Shown here: piece by piece, positions 1-6,683 of the stretch
How the letters are laid out: each line of letters begins with the position of its first letter
Position numbering within the stretch: the first letter of the stretch is position 1
Origin: Escherichia phage ES12
Sequence record: MN508614.1
Length of the DNA stretch: 64,000 bases
Direction: 5' to 3' (one strand)
Notes under the pieces: generated by a model
Seen by the model: the letters and a program-made list of their open reading frames with translations, nothing else
Database searches by the model: none
Told to the model about the DNA's origin: nothing
Program-made: the position numbers and the translations under genes

Positions 1-1011
1 CTTTTTATAAATTACCTTAGCTTCATCTAGGTTATTTACTACCTGGTTTTCAATTAAAATTACTTTATCATATCCCGATGTCATTTGTTCTAGTTTAGAA
101 AAACGTACATCATATTTTAAACGAAACGCTGGAAGACCGTATATTTCTACCAACGGGACATAATCCCAGACCTGAAACTTCATACATTGAGCTTCTTTTT
201 CAGAAATGGTTCCTTTTAAGGATTTATTGGCGATTCCATTAGAAGTAGTACGAGATTCCGCTACTTCGGCGAATTCTTTGGCTTTACTAATTTCAGGATA
301 AGCATCAAAAAGAAAATCTAGGCCTTCTGGTTCCTTTTTAACTTGCTCATGGTATACCAATTCGCCATCAATTAACACACCTTCTGGATGAATCTGGCGG
401 GCTTCAGCAGTCATTTTGATTAACTCTTCCTTAAGAAGATCTAATCCTAGATATTCATTACCAGCTCGTGATAAAAGACGAACATCATCTAATTCATCGC
501 CTCGGACTTCAGCAAAACACCGAGCTCCATCTGCTTTTAACTGCGCAAAGGCTGGAAACTTGATATTCTTATTAATGCCTTTTTCATCATAAGAACTTGC
601 AAGCATTTGAGGTTGTTCAGGAATTAAACCTGGCCAAACTTTATTTGCAATAGATACTGAAGCACCGCATTCAAGGTCTCGCATCATAACTCGACGCAAA
701 ACTTCAACATCATCCTTTTTACCATCAGTGATATATCCAGTTAATTCCTCAATTGCAGCATTTCCAGTCAATTTCCGAGTAGCTAACGTGAATTCAATGA
801 AGTCAAGCATATCGGTAATAGTCAGCATTCCAAAACTCTGGGTAGCAATACCCGGTTTAGGCCATTTCTTGATATAATACTGTAACCCACGAGAATAAGT
901 CAGACGATATACTCGTTTAAGCAATTCATTATCTTTATTCTTTTCAAGAATTGCTTGCTTCTGCTTAGTTGAACCAATAGATGCTATTTCGTTCAGAATT
1001 TTAAGAATCAT
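1..1011 (-). CDS. 30: ATP-dependent DNA ligase, N-terminal ~337 codons; 3' end lies beyond window start
   Basis: Minus-strand translation from ATG at 1011 reads MILKILNEIASIGSTKQKQAILEKNKDNELLKRVYRL..., recognised as the T4 DNA ligase N-terminus; absent from ORF track because no in-window stop. Confidence 0.9.
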   Translation of the reverse strand, partial: MILKILNEIASIGSTKQKQAILEKNKDNELLKRVYRLTYSRGLQYYIKKWPKPGIATQSFGMLTITDMLDFIEFTLATRKLTGNAAIEELTGYITDGKKDDVEVLRRVMMRDLECGASVSIANKVWPGLIPEQPQMLASSYDEKGINKNIKFPAFAQLKADGARCFAEVRGDELDDVRLLSRAGNEYLGLDLLKEELIKMTAEARQIHPEGVLIDGELVYHEQVKKEPEGLDFLFDAYPEISKAKEFAEVAESRTTSNGIANKSLKGTISEKEAQCMKFQVWDYVPLVEIYGLPAFRLKYDVRFSKLEQMTSGYDKVILIENQVVNNLDEAKVIYKK

Positions 1012-1277
1012 TGTTCATCCTTTAGAGTTTGGTTTACAGCTCTATTATAAATCAATTCATCATTAAGCTCAGTCAAAGACCTGTGGTACGTGGTTCTAAC
1101 TTTATTTCCTTGCATCCAGTGCTTGACGTAAATGAAACCTTGCTCTACACATTTTTTAAAAATTCGTTCGTCTTTTTGAGCTCGGAATTCTGGATTGCAT
1201 CTAAAAAATTGATTTACGTGACCGTAATCACGTGTAGTATTACCTTCATTTTCATAAATAGTGTGAACAACAAACAT
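1008..1277 (-). CDS. hypothetical protein, 89 aa
   Basis: ORF track; ATG start; its stop overlaps ligase start (ATGA). Confidence 0.55.
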   Translation of the reverse strand: MFVVHTIYENEGNTTRDYGHVNQFFRCNPEFRAQKDERIFKKCVEQGFIYVKHWMQGNKVRTTYHRSLTELNDELIYNRAVNQTLKDEQ

Positions 1278-2140
1278 TAGAATGCTCCTTGGAAAATATT
1301 ATCACCACTAGTAAATCTATTAAAATATCCTGCATCACCAGGCTTAGTATAACTCCACGTATGGAATGGATTCATATGATACGGGTGTGTATAATATGGA
1401 TTATATGGATGTGTATAATATGGATTATACGGATTAAATCCAGGAGTTCTCCAGGTAGTGTTCCAACGAAAAGAATCGTTTTTAACCATCTTCTCAATTA
1501 CATCTTTTATAGCTTTTTCACTATCAAAACTTTCTTTATTTTCCTTCGGTGAAAAAAGCTTATTTTCTACATCATTCCATGTATAAACTCGCTGCGCAGT
1601 TTTTGGAATATTGTCACGCTCTCCTCGAGCCATCCAATAAACAGGAACATTTAATATTTCACTCGCATGATCGCAGTGGTGGGCGAGATCGTCAATATAA
1701 CAAATTACATTATATTTCTCTTTTGCCTTTTTGAATAACTCTTCTTTTGAAGAATCATGACCACACATCATTACTTCTGAGAAGGCACCAGGAAAAAGAG
1801 CATTCAAATTAAATTGACGATTCAGCAGAGCGTCAATAGAATCACCCAATGCTGTAACAGCTACAAAATTATAATCTTCTTTTAGTTTGTTAATTACGCA
1901 CAGGGCATCTTTATATGGAGACAGGTAACGAATAAAATCTGATCGATTGTATTTTTCAATTAGCTTGACACCAAGTTCTTCATCACAATTAAAGAGTTTA
2001 CCCGGAGAAATAAATTTCTCATCTTGGATCATTTTTAAAATATGTTCTAACGGAAGATTATATTTCTGAGCAAAATAAGGAAGACCTGATTGCCAGCTTA
2101 AACATACTCCATCAATATCAGTTAAAATAGTAGGCTTCAT
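1277..2140 (-). CDS. HAD-superfamily hydrolase-like protein, 287 aa, with C-terminal NPYYTHPY repeats
   Basis: N-terminal TDIDGV resembles HAD motif I (DxDxT/V); ATG start; TAATG overlap with downstream ORF. Confidence 0.6.
   Translation of the reverse strand: MKPTILTDIDGVCLSWQSGLPYFAQKYNLPLEHILKMIQDEKFISPGKLFNCDEELGVKLIEKYNRSDFIRYLSPYKDALCVINKLKEDYNFVAVTALGDSIDALLNRQFNLNALFPGAFSEVMMCGHDSSKEELFKKAKEKYNVICYIDDLAHHCDHASEILNVPVYWMARGERDNIPKTAQRVYTWNDVENKLFSPKENKESFDSEKAIKDVIEKMVKNDSFRWNTTWRTPGFNPYNPYYTHPYNPYYTHPYHMNPFHTWSYTKPGDAGYFNRFTSGDNIFQGAF
1387..1434. repeat. 2 x 24-bp direct tandem repeat inside the HAD-like CDS
   Basis: gtgtataatatggattatatggat / gtgtataatatggattatacggat read directly; encodes the duplicated PYNPYYTH peptide. 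Confidence 0.8.
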
Positions 2141-2595
2141 AGAGAGTCTCTTAATAGGTTTAACACATCAATAAATTCAGCTTCGGTTAGTATTGTATCA
2201 TCTTTTGTTAGACCACTAGCCATGCTGTGCTTCAAAACTTTTCCTTTCGAGGCTTGTAATGCATCGCGAAAGCCCCTGTTTTGGAACGCTGCTTCAAAAT
2301 ATGCATTTGTGTATAATTCTTTCCACGCTGGAGAGTATCTTGAAAACGGAACTCCAAGCCAGAAGAGGGTCCCACGGTCCTGAGCTCTAGCATAAGACCT
2401 TCCAGCTTGTTGGGCGGCAAGCCCGGATAACCCAAATATACGACGTTGCTGTTCAATATTTTTCACCTTACACCCTTGGAGGAATCCTTCGAGACCTCCA
2501 AATTGGATACCATCCATAACAAAAGGCCATTGGGCGAAATTACTTAATGCGCATGATGGCCATCTAAAATTGCTTCTAATCTCTAACTCAGACAT
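2137..2595 (-). CDS. NADAR/YbiA-like domain protein, 152 aa
   Basis: SNFAQWPF...DG..F...EGFLQGCK resembles the NADAR (DUF1768) signature; ORF track start is TTG, trimmed to ATG at 2595. Confidence 0.55.
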   Translation of the reverse strand: MSELEIRSNFRWPSCALSNFAQWPFVMDGIQFGGLEGFLQGCKVKNIEQQRRIFGLSGLAAQQAGRSYARAQDRGTLFWLGVPFSRYSPAWKELYTNAYFEAAFQNRGFRDALQASKGKVLKHSMASGLTKDDTILTEAEFIDVLNLLRDSL

Positions 2596-2794
2596 TTTCA
2601 ATACTTATAATTTCAACATCAGCCCAATGACCATAGCAAGGAAGACGAAATTCAACTGGCCAGTTAGGGTCCTTTTCTAATATAATAGACTTAACTTGTG
2701 GTTCTTCGTGTTCATCAGTATATGGATTTTTATCTGTTACTTTATATGTGACCTTAATGTACTGAATTCCAAAAATCTTATTAATTATATTCAT
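2588..2794 (-). CDS. hypothetical protein, 68 aa
   Basis: ORF track; ATG start; overlaps neighbours in typical T-even fashion. Confidence 0.5.
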   Translation of the reverse strand: MNIINKIFGIQYIKVTYKVTDKNPYTDEHEEPQVKSIILEKDPNWPVEFRLPCYGHWADVEIISIENV

Positions 2795-2988
2795 ACTAAT
2801 TCCTTTAATCCGTAGATAGGAGATAATTCATCACCCATACGAAGGTCTTCATTTCCATCTACCCAGGAAACAATATAAGCCTCTTTTATTTGAATACCAC
2901 TCCATTTAAATGGAGGTAGAACCTTAGAAATTAATCCAGGTATACCAACTCCCTTTAATTCAACAGTTTGACCTAAAAAGAATTTCAT
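2791..2988 (-). CDS. hypothetical protein, 65 aa
   Basis: ORF track; ATG start. Confidence 0.5.
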   Translation of the reverse strand: MKFFLGQTVELKGVGIPGLISKVLPPFKWSGIQIKEAYIVSWVDGNEDLRMGDELSPIYGLKELV

Positions 2989-3275
2989 TAAAACCTCATC
3001 TGAAAACCGTGCGATTTAACATTACCGCCATTAATATCAGAACTATTAATTTCACGTGCAATTGAGGGATCAATGTCAATTTCGCGATTGAGTTTAGTGA
3101 TAGCTAAAGTATCGCGCCCATTTACAGTACGGAACTCTAAAGGGCAGACTACATTAACGTAGTTTTTAATCGATTCACTGGTAGGTTGCAAATGTGCAGG
3201 AAGGTCTTTAGGCGCCTTTGAGAAAACTACTTCGCAGAAGTTTTTACGGGTATCAAAATAAGTAGTCATAAACAT
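2988..3275 (-). CDS. hypothetical protein, ~95 aa
   Basis: ORF track ORF starts at TTG; trimmed to in-frame ATG at 3275 preceded by GAGGAAAA. Confidence 0.45.
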   Translation of the reverse strand: MFMTTYFDTRKNFCEVVFSKAPKDLPAHLQPTSESIKNYVNVVCPLEFRTVNGRDTLAITKLNREIDIDPSIAREINSSDINGGNVKSHGFQMRF

Positions 3276-3315
3276 AACATTTTCCTCAGTAAGGGGCCAA
3301 AGCCCCTCATTTATT

Positions 3316-3681
3316 TTAAATATCAAATTCGTTAAGAACTACATCAAAGATTGCTTCAAGATGCTCAGGTTTAGCTCTGTTACTCAGAATATGACGAATC
3401 CAAGTTTTAACCAAAAGCTTGCGATTAACGCCATTCCAGCAAGGATGAGTCCCTAAATCGCGTTCACGGAAATCATCATCCAGAGCGATTTTAAAGTTGG
3501 AACCTTCCATCGTGATTGAAACCGTGATACCGTTTTCAAATCGCATATAAACGTAATTAGGAGTCATATACTGCTCAATTTCGCATACTGATCCATTTTG
3601 ATGTTTCCAAAGGCAAATAGTATCAATAGAACCTGCAATACCATTAGAAACATATTTACGTTCAAAGTTGATGTAGTTCAT
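3316..3681 (-). CDS. hypothetical protein, 121 aa
   Basis: ORF track; ATG start. Confidence 0.55.
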   Translation of the reverse strand: MNYINFERKYVSNGIAGSIDTICLWKHQNGSVCEIEQYMTPNYVYMRFENGITVSITMEGSNFKIALDDDFRERDLGTHPCWNGVNRKLLVKTWIRHILSNRAKPEHLEAIFDVVLNEFDI

Positions 3682-3718
3682 TTTTATTCTCCAAGATGTT
3701 TAATTGCGGTACAGGTAT

Positions 3719-3747
3719 ATAATATCATATCCTGTACCAAAGTAAAC
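3719..3747 (-). promoter_or_regulatory. early sigma70-type promoter (GTTTAC -35, TATTAT -10)
   Basis: Reverse complement reads GTTTAC-N17-TATTAT just upstream of ORF 3316..3681. Confidence 0.5.
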
Positions 3748-3749
3748 AA

Positions 3750-4082
3750 TTATTTTACTACTTTCCAATGCTGCATGTCAAGTTTACCAACTTTTTTCAT
3801 CTTCTCAATTAAGCGTTCGGCACGTTGGCGAGCTGTAACATAATACCATTCACCTAATTCATTTTGTTCAATTTTTCCAACGATTACTGTATTCAATTCA
3901 TAAATCCAACCAGTAAAGAAATTATGAACTTGAATTGTAAAGGTGAAATCTGTTCCCATACCTTCTGTTGTTTCTACTTCAATAATATCACCTTCAACTG
4001 CCATTAAGAACCACATAGTTTCATCATATTTACCATTGAAGCATTTAGTTTTAACTGCAGCGTTCAGATTAATCGTTTTCAT
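3750..4082 (-). CDS. hypothetical protein, 110 aa
   Basis: ORF track; ATG start. Confidence 0.55.
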   Translation of the reverse strand: MKTINLNAAVKTKCFNGKYDETMWFLMAVEGDIIEVETTEGMGTDFTFTIQVHNFFTGWIYELNTVIVGKIEQNELGEWYYVTARQRAERLIEKMKKVGKLDMQHWKVVK

Positions 4083-4109
4083 TTTATTCTCCTTTGTTTG
4101 TGTAAGATA

Positions 4110-4139
4110 ATACTATCACAAAGGAACCATACTGTAAAC
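4110..4139 (-). promoter_or_regulatory. early promoter (GTTTAC -35, TAGTAT -10)
   Basis: Reverse complement GTTTAC-N18-TAGTAT upstream of ORF 3750..4082. Confidence 0.45.
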
Positions 4140-4160
4140 AACTTTATGCAATCTTTGGAA

Positions 4161-4189
4161 AATGAAAAAAGGACTCCCGAAGGAGTCCT
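4161..4189 (-). terminator. rho-independent terminator hairpin
   Basis: aggactcc-cgaa-ggagtcct stem-loop followed on minus strand by a U-run, immediately downstream of ORF 4194..4370. Confidence 0.6.
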
Positions 4190-4193
4190 CAAC

Positions 4194-4370
4194 TTATGCT
4201 TTCTGCTTACCAAAACGAGAAGCATCATCTCGAAGAACCGCACGTGCTCGGCGCATGATCTTCTCAACAGTTTGATTGATACGAGAGTTCGACCCACGCT
4301 TGTAGCCAGCGCGTTTAGAATCACCAACTTTCTTTTCAACTGCTTTCTTTGCTTTAGCTTGTTTTGCCAT
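4194..4370 (-). CDS. small highly basic protein, ~58 aa
   Basis: ORF track 4194..4412 trimmed to ATG at 4370 (MAKQAKAKKAVEKK...); Lys/Arg-rich. Confidence 0.45.
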   Translation of the reverse strand: MAKQAKAKKAVEKKVGDSKRAGYKRGSNSRINQTVEKIMRRARAVLRDDASRFGKQKA

Positions 4371-4768
4371 TATAAATTCTCTTTTAAATGAAAATGCAGG
4401 ACTTATTGGCATTGCCTGCGCAAGCCCTCAAGGGGAACATAAGTTTTTTGATATTTAACGACCAGGATAACCATAAACCCGTCATCATACCTTATAGCTC
4501 TTATCTGTTGCACACCGTTAGCTTAAAGGTTCCGGGTTCGATTTCTCGAGGATAAGATATATACTGATGGATATATAGGCCTTGAGGCGTACTCCCGATT
4601 GGCCATCACCTCGGGGTAGCATGCACTTGCCGCTATAAGAATAACATTCAAGAGGTACACCGTAAAACTGCCGGGGTCTTAAAACTATAATGATTCGCAA
4701 ATCATTAATCAGACAGTTCGACGGCTCCTCGTTTTAACTTCACACTAAGGCAGTGACTCTCCAATAAA

Positions 4769-5017
4769 TTACTTCAGTGTTACCACAAAGTGACGAACTG
4801 CTTTTCGTGCAGCAGAAGCCAGAGGCTTAGCATATTTAAGTTCATCTTTTTCCTGAAGCTCAGCAGCTAATGCAGTTTGAGCAGGATTCAGATGTTTGAA
4901 ATAACGCAGGATTTCAAGAGCTTCGGCTTCAACATCAATAGATGCGCCATAGTTTTCGTGACCATTATTCCATGCGTTTCGTTGCAGTTCAAGAGCGTGT
5001 TGTAATTGTTTAATCAT
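4769..5017 (-). CDS. rIII: rIII lysis-inhibition accessory protein, 82 aa
   Basis: 82-aa ORF immediately downstream of gene 31 as in T4; length and position match. Confidence 0.8.
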   Translation of the reverse strand: MIKQLQHALELQRNAWNNGHENYGASIDVEAEALEILRYFKHLNPAQTALAAELQEKDELKYAKPLASAARKAVRHFVVTLK

Positions 5018-5154
5018 TTAAAAATTCTCGTTAGAGATTAAAACTCGGTAGTCACGTTCTTCTGAATTTCATCTTCTTTCGACAGATCTCTCAGTTGTAG
5101 ACTACCACATAGAATTGTTCGGTTAACTTATTATTCCGACACCCAATTCATATT

Positions 5155-5162
5155 ATTATTTA
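5155..5162 (-). promoter_or_regulatory. late promoter core TATAAATA
   Basis: Plus strand tatttata = minus-strand TATAAATA between gene 31 stop and rIII. Confidence 0.5.
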
Positions 5163-5164
5163 TA

Positions 5165-5500
5165 TCACTTATAAAGACACGGAATAGCTTTATAGTGACA
5201 GGTAACGAATTTTTGTTTAATTTCTTTTGGCTGCTTAAGACCCAGAGCTACAAAAGGGTGTGGAACGTTTCGAATTTGACCAACTGGAAGAGAAGTCAAA
5301 TCACCAACTTCGCAGAAACCTTCAGGAACATCAGGACCGACAGAGTGAACTACACACAGTTCAGGAACTTCACCTTGAACACGTTTACCGATAATAAGTC
5401 CTGATTCTGTAACTTCTTCATCACCGGCTTGTGCGGGTTCAGAAACTAAAATAACATATTCACCGACAGCACGAATTGGTAGCTGTTGTACTTCAGACAT
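5165..5500 (-). CDS. 31: gp31 co-chaperonin (GroES analogue), 111 aa
   Basis: Translation [40 protein letters not shown]... matches T4 gp31 as recalled. Confidence 0.95.
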
Positions 5501-5556
5501 CGTTTTTCCTTTTTGTTAACAGATGAATTAATAATAACAAATAATTCTTAAAGCAT

Positions 5557-5865
5557 TTATTTACCAATAAATTGGAGCAAATGCTCAACTTTCATACCAT
5601 TAACGGAAATCAATTTGTCAATAGAAAAACCTCGCCATGCACCAAGTTCAACATCAAATACTGGAATCATATCAGTAGATTCTTTCCGAGTAGATTCAGT
5701 CAATTTACCAGTTTGCATGGTTGGCATAAAGTCAGCATCGCGAGTACCTTTCATAACACGAATAGTACCATCAGACTTTTCAAAAACTACGTTTGAAACA
5801 CCCATGGACAATTTAGTTTTCAAAATTTCACGAATTGCTACTTTTTGTTCAGTCGTCAGTTTCAT
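5557..5865 (-). CDS. hypothetical protein, 102 aa
   Basis: ORF track; position equivalent to T4 31.1. Confidence 0.55.
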   Translation of the reverse strand: MKLTTEQKVAIREILKTKLSMGVSNVVFEKSDGTIRVMKGTRDADFMPTMQTGKLTESTRKESTDMIPVFDVELGAWRGFSIDKLISVNGMKVEHLLQFIGK

Positions 5866-6102
5866 TTATTTACCTATTACAGTTTTAATATGAGTTGTTC
5901 CACGTTCTTTAAGAGTGGAAAGTAATTTTTGGCATTTTTCTAAATCAGATTTCCAACTATGTGGTCTATCAATACAAACCCAGTTTGACTTATAATACTG
6001 CTTCCATTTAGAGAAAAAATACTTCTTATACTCTACAGCAAATGAAATGTTCTCGTTGGAATAAGAACTAATTGCTGTGAGCTGTACCAAACGAAATTTC
6101 AT
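5866..6102 (-). CDS. hypothetical protein, 78 aa
   Basis: ORF track; ATG start; TAATG overlap with cd. Confidence 0.5.
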   Translation of the reverse strand: MKFRLVQLTAISSYSNENISFAVEYKKYFFSKWKQYYKSNWVCIDRPHSWKSDLEKCQKLLSTLKERGTTHIKTVIGK

Positions 6103-6683
6103 TATTCACCACAGAATTCGTTGATATTTTCCCAGTTTAACTTATTTAAGTTTTTCTTAGGAACATTAAACACTTCAATACCTGCATTTCGCAGAATATC
6201 ATCCCAACCAGGTTTATTTTTATCGTATGTTTCACAATAAACCAGCTTTTTAATTCCAGATTGAGCTATTGCTTTTGCACAATCTGGGCAAGGAGAAAGT
6301 GTTACATACATAGTAGCACCTTCAATTGAAGAACCGTTTCGTGCAGCAAACAAAATCGCATTTAGTTCAGCATGAATTTCATTTTTAGACGACCATTCAG
6401 AGTGCGCGCTACGATGTTCTTTCGCCAATACAAAACGATCAGTTGAACCAAACGATACACATTCAGGCTTATGACCTTGAATGATAGTATGTTTAGGCTT
6501 ATTCAGCAACCAACCTTGCTCAGCAGCATAATCACAGCAGTTCACACCACCTGCAGGTGAACCATTATATCCAGTAGAAATAATACGTCCATTCTTTTCA
6601 ATTACTGCTCCTACTTTCCAGGAGCAACATTTTGATTCTTGTGATACTAAATATGCAATTTGAAGCACTGTACTCGCTTTCAT
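6102..6683 (-). CDS. cd: dCMP deaminase, 193 aa
   Basis: Translation MKASTVLQIAYLVSQESKCCSWKVGAVIEKNGRIISTGYNGSPAGG... with zinc-binding HAE/PCxxC deaminase motifs; T4 cd length. Confidence 0.95.
   Translation of the reverse strand: MKASTVLQIAYLVSQESKCCSWKVGAVIEKNGRIISTGYNGSPAGGVNCCDYAAEQGWLLNKPKHTIIQGHKPECVSFGSTDRFVLAKEHRSAHSEWSSKNEIHAELNAILFAARNGSSIEGATMYVTLSPCPDCAKAIAQSGIKKLVYCETYDKNKPGWDDILRNAGIEVFNVPKKNLNKLNWENINEFCGE

What the first reader, a model, noticed from the sequence alone, without database searches (positions are those of the whole stretch)
1277..2140. HAD-like hydrolase with a tandemly duplicated NPYYTHPY tail encoded by a 2 x 24-bp direct repeat
The protein starts with a HAD motif I-like TDIDGV and ends in ...GFNPYNPYYTHPYNPYYTHPYHMNPFHTWSY, a Tyr/Pro/His-rich repeat produced by a perfect-but-one 24-bp tandem duplication (1387..1434). 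Such repeats vary in copy number by slippage and may form a metal- or protein-binding tail; repeat number could differ between isolates.
Basis: seen in the sequence. Interest (0 to 1): 0.35.

Follow-up and report, generated by a model that had tools for sequence, protein, structure and literature searches.

The report
T4 gene 30.2 phosphatase, length-variable tail
This is the T4-type phage gene 30.2, a phosphatase of the HAD family whose floppy C-terminal tail carries a 24-base repeat found in one, two or three copies in different phage isolates; it is real but fairly ordinary.

Summary
The minus-strand ORF 1277..2140 encodes 287 aa. Units 1411..1434 and 1387..1410 differ at one base, and this is the only tandem array scoring at least 50 in the 64-kb window.

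The window is a Tequatrovirus and the ORF is the ortholog of T4 gene 30.2, in the string 30.3 (adfN) - 30.2 - 30.1 - 30 (DNA ligase).

Residues 221-287 are predicted disordered. They evolve about 15 times faster than the core at the amino-acid level and are absent from about 40% of family representatives.

The repeat is not an artefact. At least 44 phage records carry the two-copy allele. D5505 has one copy, BYEP01 has three, and RPN226 has two plus an extra 9 bp. Slippage polymorphism is therefore shown.

Metal binding is not supported. Protein docking is untested. The substrate is unknown; a (deoxy)nucleotide is inferred. Low to moderate interest.

The parts
1277..2140 (-). CDS, ortholog of T4 gene 30.2 (287 aa; stop TAA 1277-1279).
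   Evidence: ORF list. 100% DNA identity to Escherichia phages ES26 and 132, and 617 phage records match. T4 30.2 is annotated at the syntenic position and is 278 aa.
1556..2140 (-). HAD phosphatase core with a helical C1-type cap (residues 1-195).
2105..2119 (-). HAD motif I, D8-I-D10-G-V12 (nucleophile Asp8 and acid/base Asp10).
   Evidence: D8 and D10 are invariant in 98 homologues. The corresponding two Asp are invariant in 110 more distant relatives.
1853..1855 (-). HAD motif II Thr96 (in VAVTAL).
   Evidence: Conserved in >=90% of 98 homologues.
1745..1747 (-). HAD motif III Lys132.
   Evidence: Invariant.
1688..1693 (-). HAD motif IV Asp150-Asp151 (in YIDDL).
   Evidence: Conserved in >=90%. 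Codons GAC GAT read directly from the sequence.
1481..1537 (-). Helix after the core (residues 202-220).
   Evidence: AF2 secondary structure in both models, at moderate pLDDT.
1280..1480 (-). Disordered Pro/Trp/Tyr-rich C-terminal tail (residues 221-287).
   Evidence: pLDDT 36-61 and 29-41 in the T4-type model. Tails are enriched in W 3.6x and P 3.2x over the core. Tail dN 0.06-0.17 against core dN 0-0.009.
1439..1453 (-). Conserved island 1 of the tail, W230-R-T-P-G234.
   Evidence: W230 is near-invariant among tail-bearing homologues.
1411..1434 (-). 24-bp repeat unit A.
1387..1410 (-). 24-bp repeat unit B (one mismatch to unit A).
   Evidence: Lost in D5505 and present twice in BYEP01.
1379..1386 (-). 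Partial third unit (the 0.3 copy reported by TRF).
1310..1339 (-). Degenerate island 2 of the tail, G268-DAGYFNRF-T277. It corresponds to GGIEYLYNRPT in T4 and GTGIEYLNRQPT in other genera.
   Evidence: Alignment of tail-bearing homologues. E262, Y263 and T269 (numbering of the T4-type representative P0001) are near-invariant, but the window allele has lost the Glu and the Pro.
1285..1290 (-). Shine-Dalgarno AAGGAG of the downstream gene 30.1, embedded in the invariant last codons (FQGAF) of 30.2.
   Evidence: Read from the sequence. These codons are identical in all seven aligned alleles.
2137..2601 (-). Upstream gene 30.3 (adfN, a NADAR DNA ADP-ribosylglycohydrolase). Its stop overlaps the 30.2 start (ATGA).
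   Evidence: Pfam Phage_30_3, E 4.8e-69. Function from PMC11825919.
1008..1277 (-). Downstream gene 30.1 (DUF3045). Its ATG 1275-1277 overlaps the 30.2 stop.
   Evidence: Pfam DUF3045, E 2.9e-64.
3..1011 (-). First 336 codons of gene 30 (ATP-dependent DNA ligase); the gene runs off the window.
   Evidence: The translation starts MILKILNEIASIGSTKQKQ.... T4 annotation.

Best explanation
The ORF is the ortholog of phage T4 gene 30.2. It is the second gene in a translationally coupled string 30.3 (adfN) - 30.2 - 30.1 - 30 (DNA ligase).

Core (residues 1-195). This is a DxD-type HAD phosphomonoesterase with a helical cap. It belongs to a mostly phage-borne subfamily that grades into the NT5C 5'(3')-deoxyribonucleotidase family. 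By analogy with that family (inferred), Asp8 forms a phospho-aspartyl intermediate, Asp10 acts as acid/base, Thr96 and Lys132 hold the phosphate, and Asp150/Asp151 hold Mg2+. The invariant Trp16 sits where NT5C enzymes have a base-stacking Phe. The likely substrate is therefore a (deoxy)nucleoside monophosphate or a similar small phosphoester (inferred, about 50% confidence).

Tail (residues 196-287). A helix is followed by an intrinsically disordered Pro/Trp/Tyr-rich tail. The tail is an accessory module restricted to enterobacterial T4-like phages. Its middle section is built from degenerate 9-bp (xPY) units. One 24-bp block of these expands and contracts in frame by replication slippage or unequal recombination.

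Polymorphism (shown). Natural alleles exist with one, two and three copies, and with two copies plus 9 bp.

Consequence (inferred). The repeat acts as a tolerant spacer between two short conserved islands (WxxPG and GxxEY..PT), and its copy number probably has little effect on function.
For: Identity and synteny.

HAD fold and motifs.

Link to NT5C:
- The best profile match in the PDB is mouse cdN. It aligns DvDGvlvkWqSgL of the profile to MDGVLADFESGL (E 0.11).
- 17 of 98 close relatives and 21 of 110 distant relatives hit PF06941, which is the commonest family among the distant set.
- The relative L099 is 32% identical to the window protein (BLASTP E 2e-21) and passes the Pfam NT5C gathering score, 41 against 24.8 bits.
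- In that lineage a MazG-like NTP pyrophosphohydrolase gene follows the HAD gene in 6 of 8 loci.

Tail disorder.

Relaxed but not absent constraint: core dN/dS is about 0-0.04 and tail about 0.14-0.26.

Tail dispensability:
- About 40% of family representatives end within 26 residues of the core.
- Most of the 474 family clusters are 190-225 aa.
- An allele truncated at 241 aa occurs in 11 records.

Slippage series:
- D5505: one copy, differing from the window gene by 1 substitution plus one 24-nt gap.
- BYEP01: three copies, 295 aa.
- RPN226: plus 9 bp.
- L003 and VEc74: a 6-bp SG duplication.
- Erwinia phage Cronus type: an independent 11-aa duplication in a different tail.
Against: - No enzymatic data exist and I found no paper on gp30.2.
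- The window protein itself matches no Pfam or NCBIfam model even at E<=1. NT5C membership therefore rests on transitive homology and fold.
- Tail dN/dS stays below 1, two islands are conserved across genera, and most length variants observed are in frame. The tail is therefore not junk, and copy number could matter.
- Part of the C-terminal conservation is explained by the embedded ribosome-binding site of 30.1 rather than by protein function.
Confidence: 0.8

Rival explanations
1. The tail is a functional docking module built from short linear motifs. It tethers the phosphatase to a partner such as the ligase, gp30.1, AdfN or a replisome component. The repeat sets the spacing between the two islands, so copy-number change is adaptive tuning rather than neutral noise.
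For: - Two islands (W230-x-x-P-G and G-x-G-I-E-Y-L-x-R-Q-P-T) are conserved across Tequatrovirus, RB69-like and Klebsiella/Citrobacter-type phages while the spacer between them varies.
- Tail dN/dS is 0.14-0.26, below 1.
- The HAD gene lies within 2 kb of the ligase gene in 68 of 79 IMG/VR loci, including rearranged ones.
- One metagenomic ORF fuses a tail-less HAD core to DUF3045, the 30.1 domain.
Against: - The window-type allele has itself lost the near-invariant Glu and Pro of island 2 (GDAGYFNRFT).
- A truncated allele persists in 11 records.
- About 40% of the family has no tail, and the tail types are mutually unalignable.
- No other ORF in the loci held carries the island.
- AF2 shows no docking onto the core.
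- Adjacency to the ligase may simply be inherited T4 synteny.
Confidence: 0.2
2. The His/Tyr-rich repeat is a metal-binding tail.
For: The window allele has five His within 22 residues of the tract (THPY twice, then YHM and FHTW).
Against: - His is under-represented in tails across the family, at 0.63x the core frequency.
- The T4-type tail has only two His and other tail types have 0-2, at non-equivalent positions.
- There is no Cys/His pattern resembling a known site, and no PDB or PHROG match outside its own family.
Confidence: 0.03
3. The repeat matters at the DNA or RNA level. Each unit carries a TATAAT hexamer, so the tract could be an internal promoter or regulatory element for 30.1 and the ligase gene.
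For: A sigma-70-like site scoring 10 of 12 (TGGAGA, 18-nt spacer, TATAAT) lies at 1453..1424 on the coding strand.
Against: - Promoter-like sites are barely above shuffle expectation in this AT-rich region: 10 found against 6.7 +/- 1.9 expected.
- I saw no MotA box or T4 late-promoter TATAAATA in the tract.
- The T4-type and L002-type alleles lack the duplicated hexamer yet keep the same operon.
- No Rfam hit.
Confidence: 0.03
4. The duplication is a sequencing or assembly artefact.
For: None was found. Short tandem repeats can in principle be miscounted by assemblers.
Against: The identical two-copy tract is present in 44 listed records from many laboratories and platforms. A 48-bp tract is far shorter than any read length.
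Confidence: 0.01

Closest known systems
Bacteriophage T4 gene 30.2 product (NP_049815, 278 aa; 'hypothetical protein').
   Same: Ortholog. Same position between 30.3 and 30.1/ligase. The core is nearly identical: dN 0.009, and 53 substitutions over the gene.
   Different: The tails differ. T4 has NPYNPYHPYQTHPFQTW...GGIEYLYNRPTCG, with no 24-bp duplication and an intact GIEY island. The window allele has two NPYYTHPY units and a degenerate island. The T4-type tail is the majority, at about 340 records with >=90% identity to the T4 tail. The window type is a minority of roughly 60-80 records.
NT5C family (Pfam PF06941): cytosolic and mitochondrial 5'(3')-deoxyribonucleotidases cdN and mdN.
   Same: - HAD core plus helical cap, about 195 aa.
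- DxDGV motif I followed by an aromatic residue at nucleophile+8 and SGL.
- Foldseek E 6e-8, target-normalised TM 0.63-0.69.
- Best PDB profile hit.
- Linked through relatives that pass the Pfam threshold.
   Different: The window protein does not reach any Pfam threshold. It has Trp instead of Phe at the stacking position. It carries a 90-residue C-terminal extension that the ~200-residue cdN/mdN chains matched here do not have. Activity is untested.
Phosphatase domain of T4 polynucleotide kinase (PseT; Pfam HAD_PNKP).
   Same: Another HAD phosphatase encoded in the same phage genomes a few kb away. Weak PHROG 415 match, E 0.0012.
   Different: PseT has a different cap arrangement and is fused to a kinase. 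The match is marginal. 30.2 is a separate paralogous lineage that coexists with PseT in the same phages.
In-frame coding minisatellites (VNTRs) in disordered protein regions.
   Same: Near-identical head-to-tail units, copy-number polymorphism among otherwise near-identical isolates, and units that are multiples of three.
   Different: Only 1-3 copies were seen. It is not an on/off phase-variation switch like bacterial contingency loci. No phenotype is known.

Membership tests
HAD superfamily | Rossmann-like alpha/beta core fold. | tested here: met
HAD superfamily | Motif I DxDx(T/V), with the second Asp typical of phosphatases. | tested here: met
   D8-I-D10-G-V. D8 and D10 are invariant in 98 homologues, and the corresponding two Asp in 110 distant relatives.
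HAD superfamily | Motif II Ser/Thr, motif III Lys, motif IV acidic pair. | tested here: met
   T96 at >=90%, K132 invariant, D150 and D151 at >=90%.
HAD superfamily | Match to a curated HAD sequence model at its threshold. | tested here: not met
   No Pfam or NCBIfam family at E<=1 for the window protein. Only weak PF00702 hits in 22 of 98 relatives.
HAD superfamily | Mg2+-dependent phosphoryl transfer through an aspartyl-phosphate intermediate. | not testable with these tools
   Needs an enzyme assay.
NT5C 5'(3')-deoxyribonucleotidase family (PF06941) | Pfam gathering score. | tested here: not met
   The window protein has no hit. The relative L099 (32% identical, E 2e-21) scores 41 against 24.8 bits. 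21 of 110 distant relatives hit at E<=1e-3. Membership is therefore transitive only.
NT5C 5'(3')-deoxyribonucleotidase family (PF06941) | Helical C1-type cap inserted just after motif I. | tested here: met
   AF2 helices span residues 16-86, between motif I and motif II.
NT5C 5'(3')-deoxyribonucleotidase family (PF06941) | Aromatic base-stacking residue eight positions after the nucleophile. | tested here: inconclusive
   W16 is invariant and aligns with the Phe of MDGVLADFESGL in mouse cdN. That alignment has E 0.11. The role of the Phe is recalled from the cdN/mdN literature, not tested here.
NT5C 5'(3')-deoxyribonucleotidase family (PF06941) | dNMP phosphatase activity. | not testable with these tools
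   Needs an enzyme assay.
Slippage-prone coding tandem repeat (VNTR) | Near-identical head-to-tail units. | tested here: met
   Two 24-bp units with one mismatch. TRF score 98, the only array in the window.
Slippage-prone coding tandem repeat (VNTR) | Copy number differs among close relatives. | tested here: met
   One copy (D5505), two copies (at least 44 records), three copies (BYEP01), two copies plus 9 bp (RPN226).
Phase-variable contingency locus | Copy-number change shifts the reading frame and switches the gene on or off. | tested here: not met
   The units are 24, 9 and 6 bp, all multiples of three. The one-, two- and three-copy alleles and the +9-bp allele are all in frame. The AV120-type stop arises from re-registering of the tract, not from copy number.
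T4 gene 30.2 orthologs | Sequence identity and conserved position 30.3 - 30.2 - 30.1 - 30. | tested here: met

The most novel reading that the evidence does not exclude
gp30.2 may be a working partner in a DNA-repair or counter-defence module with its operon neighbours.

The phosphatase would process a nucleotide-derived product or DNA end generated when AdfN (gp30.3) strips ADP-ribose from DarT-modified DNA, before the ligase seals. Alternatively it would degrade a nucleotide signal. The disordered tail, through its WxxPG and GIEY..PT islands, would dock the enzyme to that partner.

This would supply the 'additional T-even protein' that PMC11825919 invokes to explain why AdfN works fully only in T-even infections. 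Tail-length alleles would then tune that docking.
Probability: 0.07. Interest if true: 0.55.

Novelty: new member of a known kind. Interest (0 to 1): 0.25.

Why it matters
- It gives an uncharacterised but widespread T4-family gene a defensible assignment: an NT5C-like HAD phosphatase. The gene is in 617 phage records here and in 474 family clusters in public protein data.
- It documents a clean natural one/two/three-copy series of a coding minisatellite in a phage early-region gene. That series could serve as a strain marker and as a small model for slippage in T4-type replication.
- If the tail proves to be a docking module, or the enzyme proves linked to the neighbouring anti-DarT and ligase genes, the interest would rise. 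On present evidence it is a tidy but ordinary finding.

Tried and rejected
- Direct Pfam, NCBIfam and PDB sequence searches with the window protein found nothing significant.
- A regex scan of all held loci and the window for the GIEY island in other ORFs found it only in 30.2 tails, plus one chance hit.
- The tail alone against the PDB and PHROGs matched only its own PHROG 420.
- I tested whether the C-terminal domain of the phiR1-RT-type homologue is a hidden DUF3045. BLASTP gave E 0.72, so this was rejected.
- A second AF2 run used only GIEY-type homologues, to see whether the island docks onto the core. The tail stayed below pLDDT 41.
- The afdb50 fold library was unavailable.
- Literature searches for gp30.2, for 30.2 with haloacid dehalogenase, and for phage HAD nucleotidases in defence found nothing relevant. 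The T4 genome review (PMC150520) is not held.
- No Rfam family matches in 1-6000, and there is no terminator-like site in 900-2700.
- The plus-strand ORFs overlapping the gene, and the 41-aa frame-shifted minus-strand ORF 1372-1497, are short low-complexity read-throughs of the repeat and were dismissed.

Full report
**What is in the sequence**

On the minus strand, 1277..2140 is a 287-codon ORF. It begins MKPTILTDIDGVCLSW and contains ...TPGFNPYNPYYTHPYNPYYTHPYHMNPFHTWSYTKPGDAGYFNRFTSGDNIFQGAF.

Tandem Repeats Finder reports 1379..1434, period 24, 2.3 copies, score 98. It also reports a weaker 9-bp period that corresponds to NPY/HPY codon triplets. No other tandem array in the 64-kb window reaches score 50.

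One small amendment is needed. The repeat (residues 239-254) lies 33 residues before the C-terminus, not at the very end of the protein.

**Where it comes from**

The gene is 100% identical to Escherichia phages ES26 and 132, and 617 phage records match it, almost all Tequatrovirus. In the T4 reference the syntenic gene is 30.2, a 278-aa 'hypothetical protein' between 30.3 and 30.1/30.

The window shows the same string:
- 30.3 at 2137..2601 (Pfam Phage_30_3).
- 30.2.
- 30.1 at 1008..1277 (DUF3045).
- The first 336 codons of DNA ligase at 3..1011.

The genes overlap: ATGA at 2137-2140 and TAATG at 1275-1279. The Shine-Dalgarno AAGGAG of 30.1 (1285-1290) lies inside the last codons of 30.2. This explains part of the invariance of the C-terminal FQGAF.

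Gene 30.3 has recently been characterised as AdfN, a NADAR DNA ADP-ribosylglycohydrolase that counters DarTG1 (PMC11825919). I found no paper on gp30.2.

**Is it a HAD hydrolase?**

Sequence models say nothing directly. There is no Pfam or NCBIfam hit at E<=1, and no PDB sequence hit. PHROG 420 is 'unknown function', and there is a marginal match to the polynucleotide kinase PHROG.

Structure and conservation are clear.
- An AlphaFold2 model built on 98 homologues has pLDDT 93-98 over residues 1-195.
- Foldseek finds 102 matches at E<=1e-3, including cytosolic and mitochondrial 5'(3')-deoxyribonucleotidases with target-normalised TM 0.63-0.69.
- All four HAD motifs are conserved: D8 and D10 invariant, T96 at >=90%, K132 invariant, D150 and D151 at >=90%.
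- The two Asp, the Lys, R108, and near-invariant W16 and N111 persist in 110 much more distant relatives.

**Which HAD family?**

- A profile of the family finds mouse cdN as its best PDB sequence. It aligns DvDGvlvkWqSgL to MDGVLADFESGL at a non-significant E of 0.11.
- Scanned individually, 17 of 98 close relatives and 21 of 110 distant relatives hit Pfam NT5C. NT5C is the commonest family among the distant set.
- A relative from IMG/VR (L099, 201 aa) is 32% identical to the window protein over residues 5-191 (BLASTP E 2e-21). It passes the NT5C gathering score, 41 against 24.8 bits, over the full model.

I therefore place 30.2 in a mostly phage-borne subfamily that grades into NT5C, but I do not call it a formal Pfam member. 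The whole family is modest in size: 474 clusters at E<=1e-3 among 1.84 billion representatives, most of them 190-225 aa.

A nucleotide substrate is inferred from three things: this affinity, the invariant Trp at the position of the NT5C stacking Phe (the role of that Phe is recalled from the literature), and a MazG-like gene next to the HAD gene in the L099 lineage. It is not shown.

**The tail**

After the core comes a helix (202-220), then about 67 residues with pLDDT 36-61.

A second model used the T4-type protein and only homologues that share the tail. It also left the tail at pLDDT 29-41, with just one helical turn at EYLY.

Across 98 representatives, 55 have an extension of at least 50 residues and about 40 stop within 26 residues of the core. 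Tails are enriched in Trp (3.6x), Pro (3.2x) and Thr (2.1x), and depleted in His (0.63x).

Tails occur in the enterobacterial T4-like lineages and fall into several mutually unalignable types. Acinetobacter-, Shewanella-, Serratia- and cyanophage-like relatives lack them.

Within the largest type, two islands are conserved: W230-x-x-P-G and G-x-G-I-E-Y-L-x-R-Q-P-T. A variable Pro/aromatic spacer separates them, and the repeat sits in that spacer. The window-type allele has a degenerate second island, GDAGYFNRFT.

**Evolutionary rates**

Nei-Gojobori estimates between the window gene and the T4, L002, L004 and AV121 alleles are:

| Region | dN | dS | dN/dS |
|---|---|---|---|
| Core | 0-0.009 | 0.17-0.25 | about 0-0.04 |
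| Tail | 0.03-0.17 | 0.23-0.76 | about 0.14-0.26 |

The tail is thus much less constrained than the core but not free.

**Copy number in nature**

A 136-nt query across the repeat finds 44 listed records with the same 136-nt span at >=97.8% identity. This excludes an artefact.

- Phage D5505 covers the query in 112 nt. Its gene differs from the window gene by one substitution and one 24-nt gap, giving a single NPYYTHPY.
- A synthetic three-copy query found phage BYEP01 matching end to end at 99.4%. Its gene encodes 295 aa with three units.
- RPN226 has two units plus an extra NPY (9 bp).
- L003 and VEc74 have a 6-bp SG duplication further downstream.
- Eleven records (AV120 type) carry a re-registered tract of the same length. 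It creates a TAA and a 241-aa product.
- An unrelated tail type (Erwinia phage Cronus) has its own 11-aa duplication.

The T4-type tail without the duplication is the majority allele, at about 340 records. The L002 type is also common.

**Mechanism**

Shown:
- The repeat exists.
- Its copy number varies in frame among isolates that are otherwise near-identical.
- It lies in a predicted disordered, fast-evolving segment that is dispensable in many lineages.

Inferred:
- The variation arises by replication slippage or unequal recombination between 24-bp and 9-bp units.
- The segment is a tolerant spacer.

Metal binding is not supported. A DNA-level role has only a consensus-level promoter-like match, barely above shuffle expectation. 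There is no RNA family hit.

**Context and the most novel reading**

The HAD gene lies within 2 kb of the ATP-dependent ligase gene in 68 of 79 IMG/VR loci, and in all six distant contigs examined individually. These include cases where the order is reversed. The 30.3 gene accompanies it in 33 of the 79 loci and 30.1 in 24. One metagenomic ORF fuses a tail-less HAD core to DUF3045.

This could reflect a functional module. The AdfN paper does invoke an unidentified T-even cofactor. It is equally explained by inherited T4 synteny, and I give this reading about 7%.

**Verdict**

The gene is an already sequenced T4 ORF, sporadically annotated as HAD or 5'-nucleotidase in GenBank.

What is added here:
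- A firm fold and motif assignment.
- The link to NT5C.
- The anatomy of the tail.
- A documented one/two/three-copy polymorphism.

Interest is low to moderate.

Noticed in passing
Phage records OR352950 (AV120; locus L016 1201-1336), Pu-Krd-SF1-7, FL12, Manna and 236Ecol005PP. Corresponds to window 1387-1434.: Eleven records carry a tract of the same length but re-registered (AATCCATTAT | AATCCATATTATAC | AATCC...). This creates a TAA stop and a 241-aa gp30.2 lacking the last 46 residues. The downstream sequence is otherwise intact.
   Followed up: partly
Window 2137-2601 (-).: The upstream gene is 30.3/adfN, the NADAR anti-DarTG1 ADP-ribosylglycohydrolase (PMC11825919). It appears full length here. 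Its GC content (0.43-0.48) stands out from the 0.32-0.37 of its neighbours, hinting at a separate origin.
   Followed up: partly
Window 1275-1290 (-).: The Shine-Dalgarno AAGGAG and the ATG of gene 30.1 are embedded in the last codons and stop of 30.2 (FQGAF*). The invariance of the extreme C-terminus may therefore be a translational-coupling constraint rather than a protein one.
   Followed up: partly
P0014 / locus L027 234-1142.: A 302-aa metagenomic ORF joins a tail-less 30.2-type HAD core in frame to a DUF3045 (30.1) domain (Pfam E 8e-15). It is either a genuine fusion or loss of a stop codon. It was seen on one short contig.
   Followed up: partly
P0046 / locus L051 5001-5933 (Erwinia phage Cronus type).: An independent tandem duplication in a different tail type: PMTPCDPPYPY / PMTPCDPVYPG, 9 of 11 residues identical. 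The related P0037 has a single copy.
   Followed up: partly
Loci L028-L106.: The HAD gene is next to the ATP-dependent DNA ligase gene in 68 of 79 loci. In L094, L096, L097 and L021 the ligase lies upstream instead of downstream. The 11 most distant loci have no ligase within 5 kb.
   Followed up: yes
Loci L099-L102, L105 and L106, about 5690-6250.: In the distant NT5C-type lineage a MazG-like NTP pyrophosphohydrolase gene directly follows the HAD gene, and a conserved 180-aa HExxH-containing ORF precedes it.
   Followed up: partly
P0067, P0069; loci L061 and L095 (Yersinia phage phiR1-RT type).: Instead of the Pro/Trp tail, these homologues carry a roughly 100-residue C-terminal region that looks globular. 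It has no Pfam match and no detectable similarity to DUF3045.
   Followed up: partly
P0082 (347 aa).: This homologue has a long C-terminal extension ending in a Cys-rich segment (CVGCSKEG...YYCGGAPWCCP), possibly a zinc-binding module.
   Followed up: no
Locus L091 4288-6714.: In this distant phage lineage the HAD gene sits between a PD-(D/E)XK nuclease gene and a patatin-like phospholipase gene, with a gp32-like ORF (by eye, not searched) nearby.
   Followed up: partly
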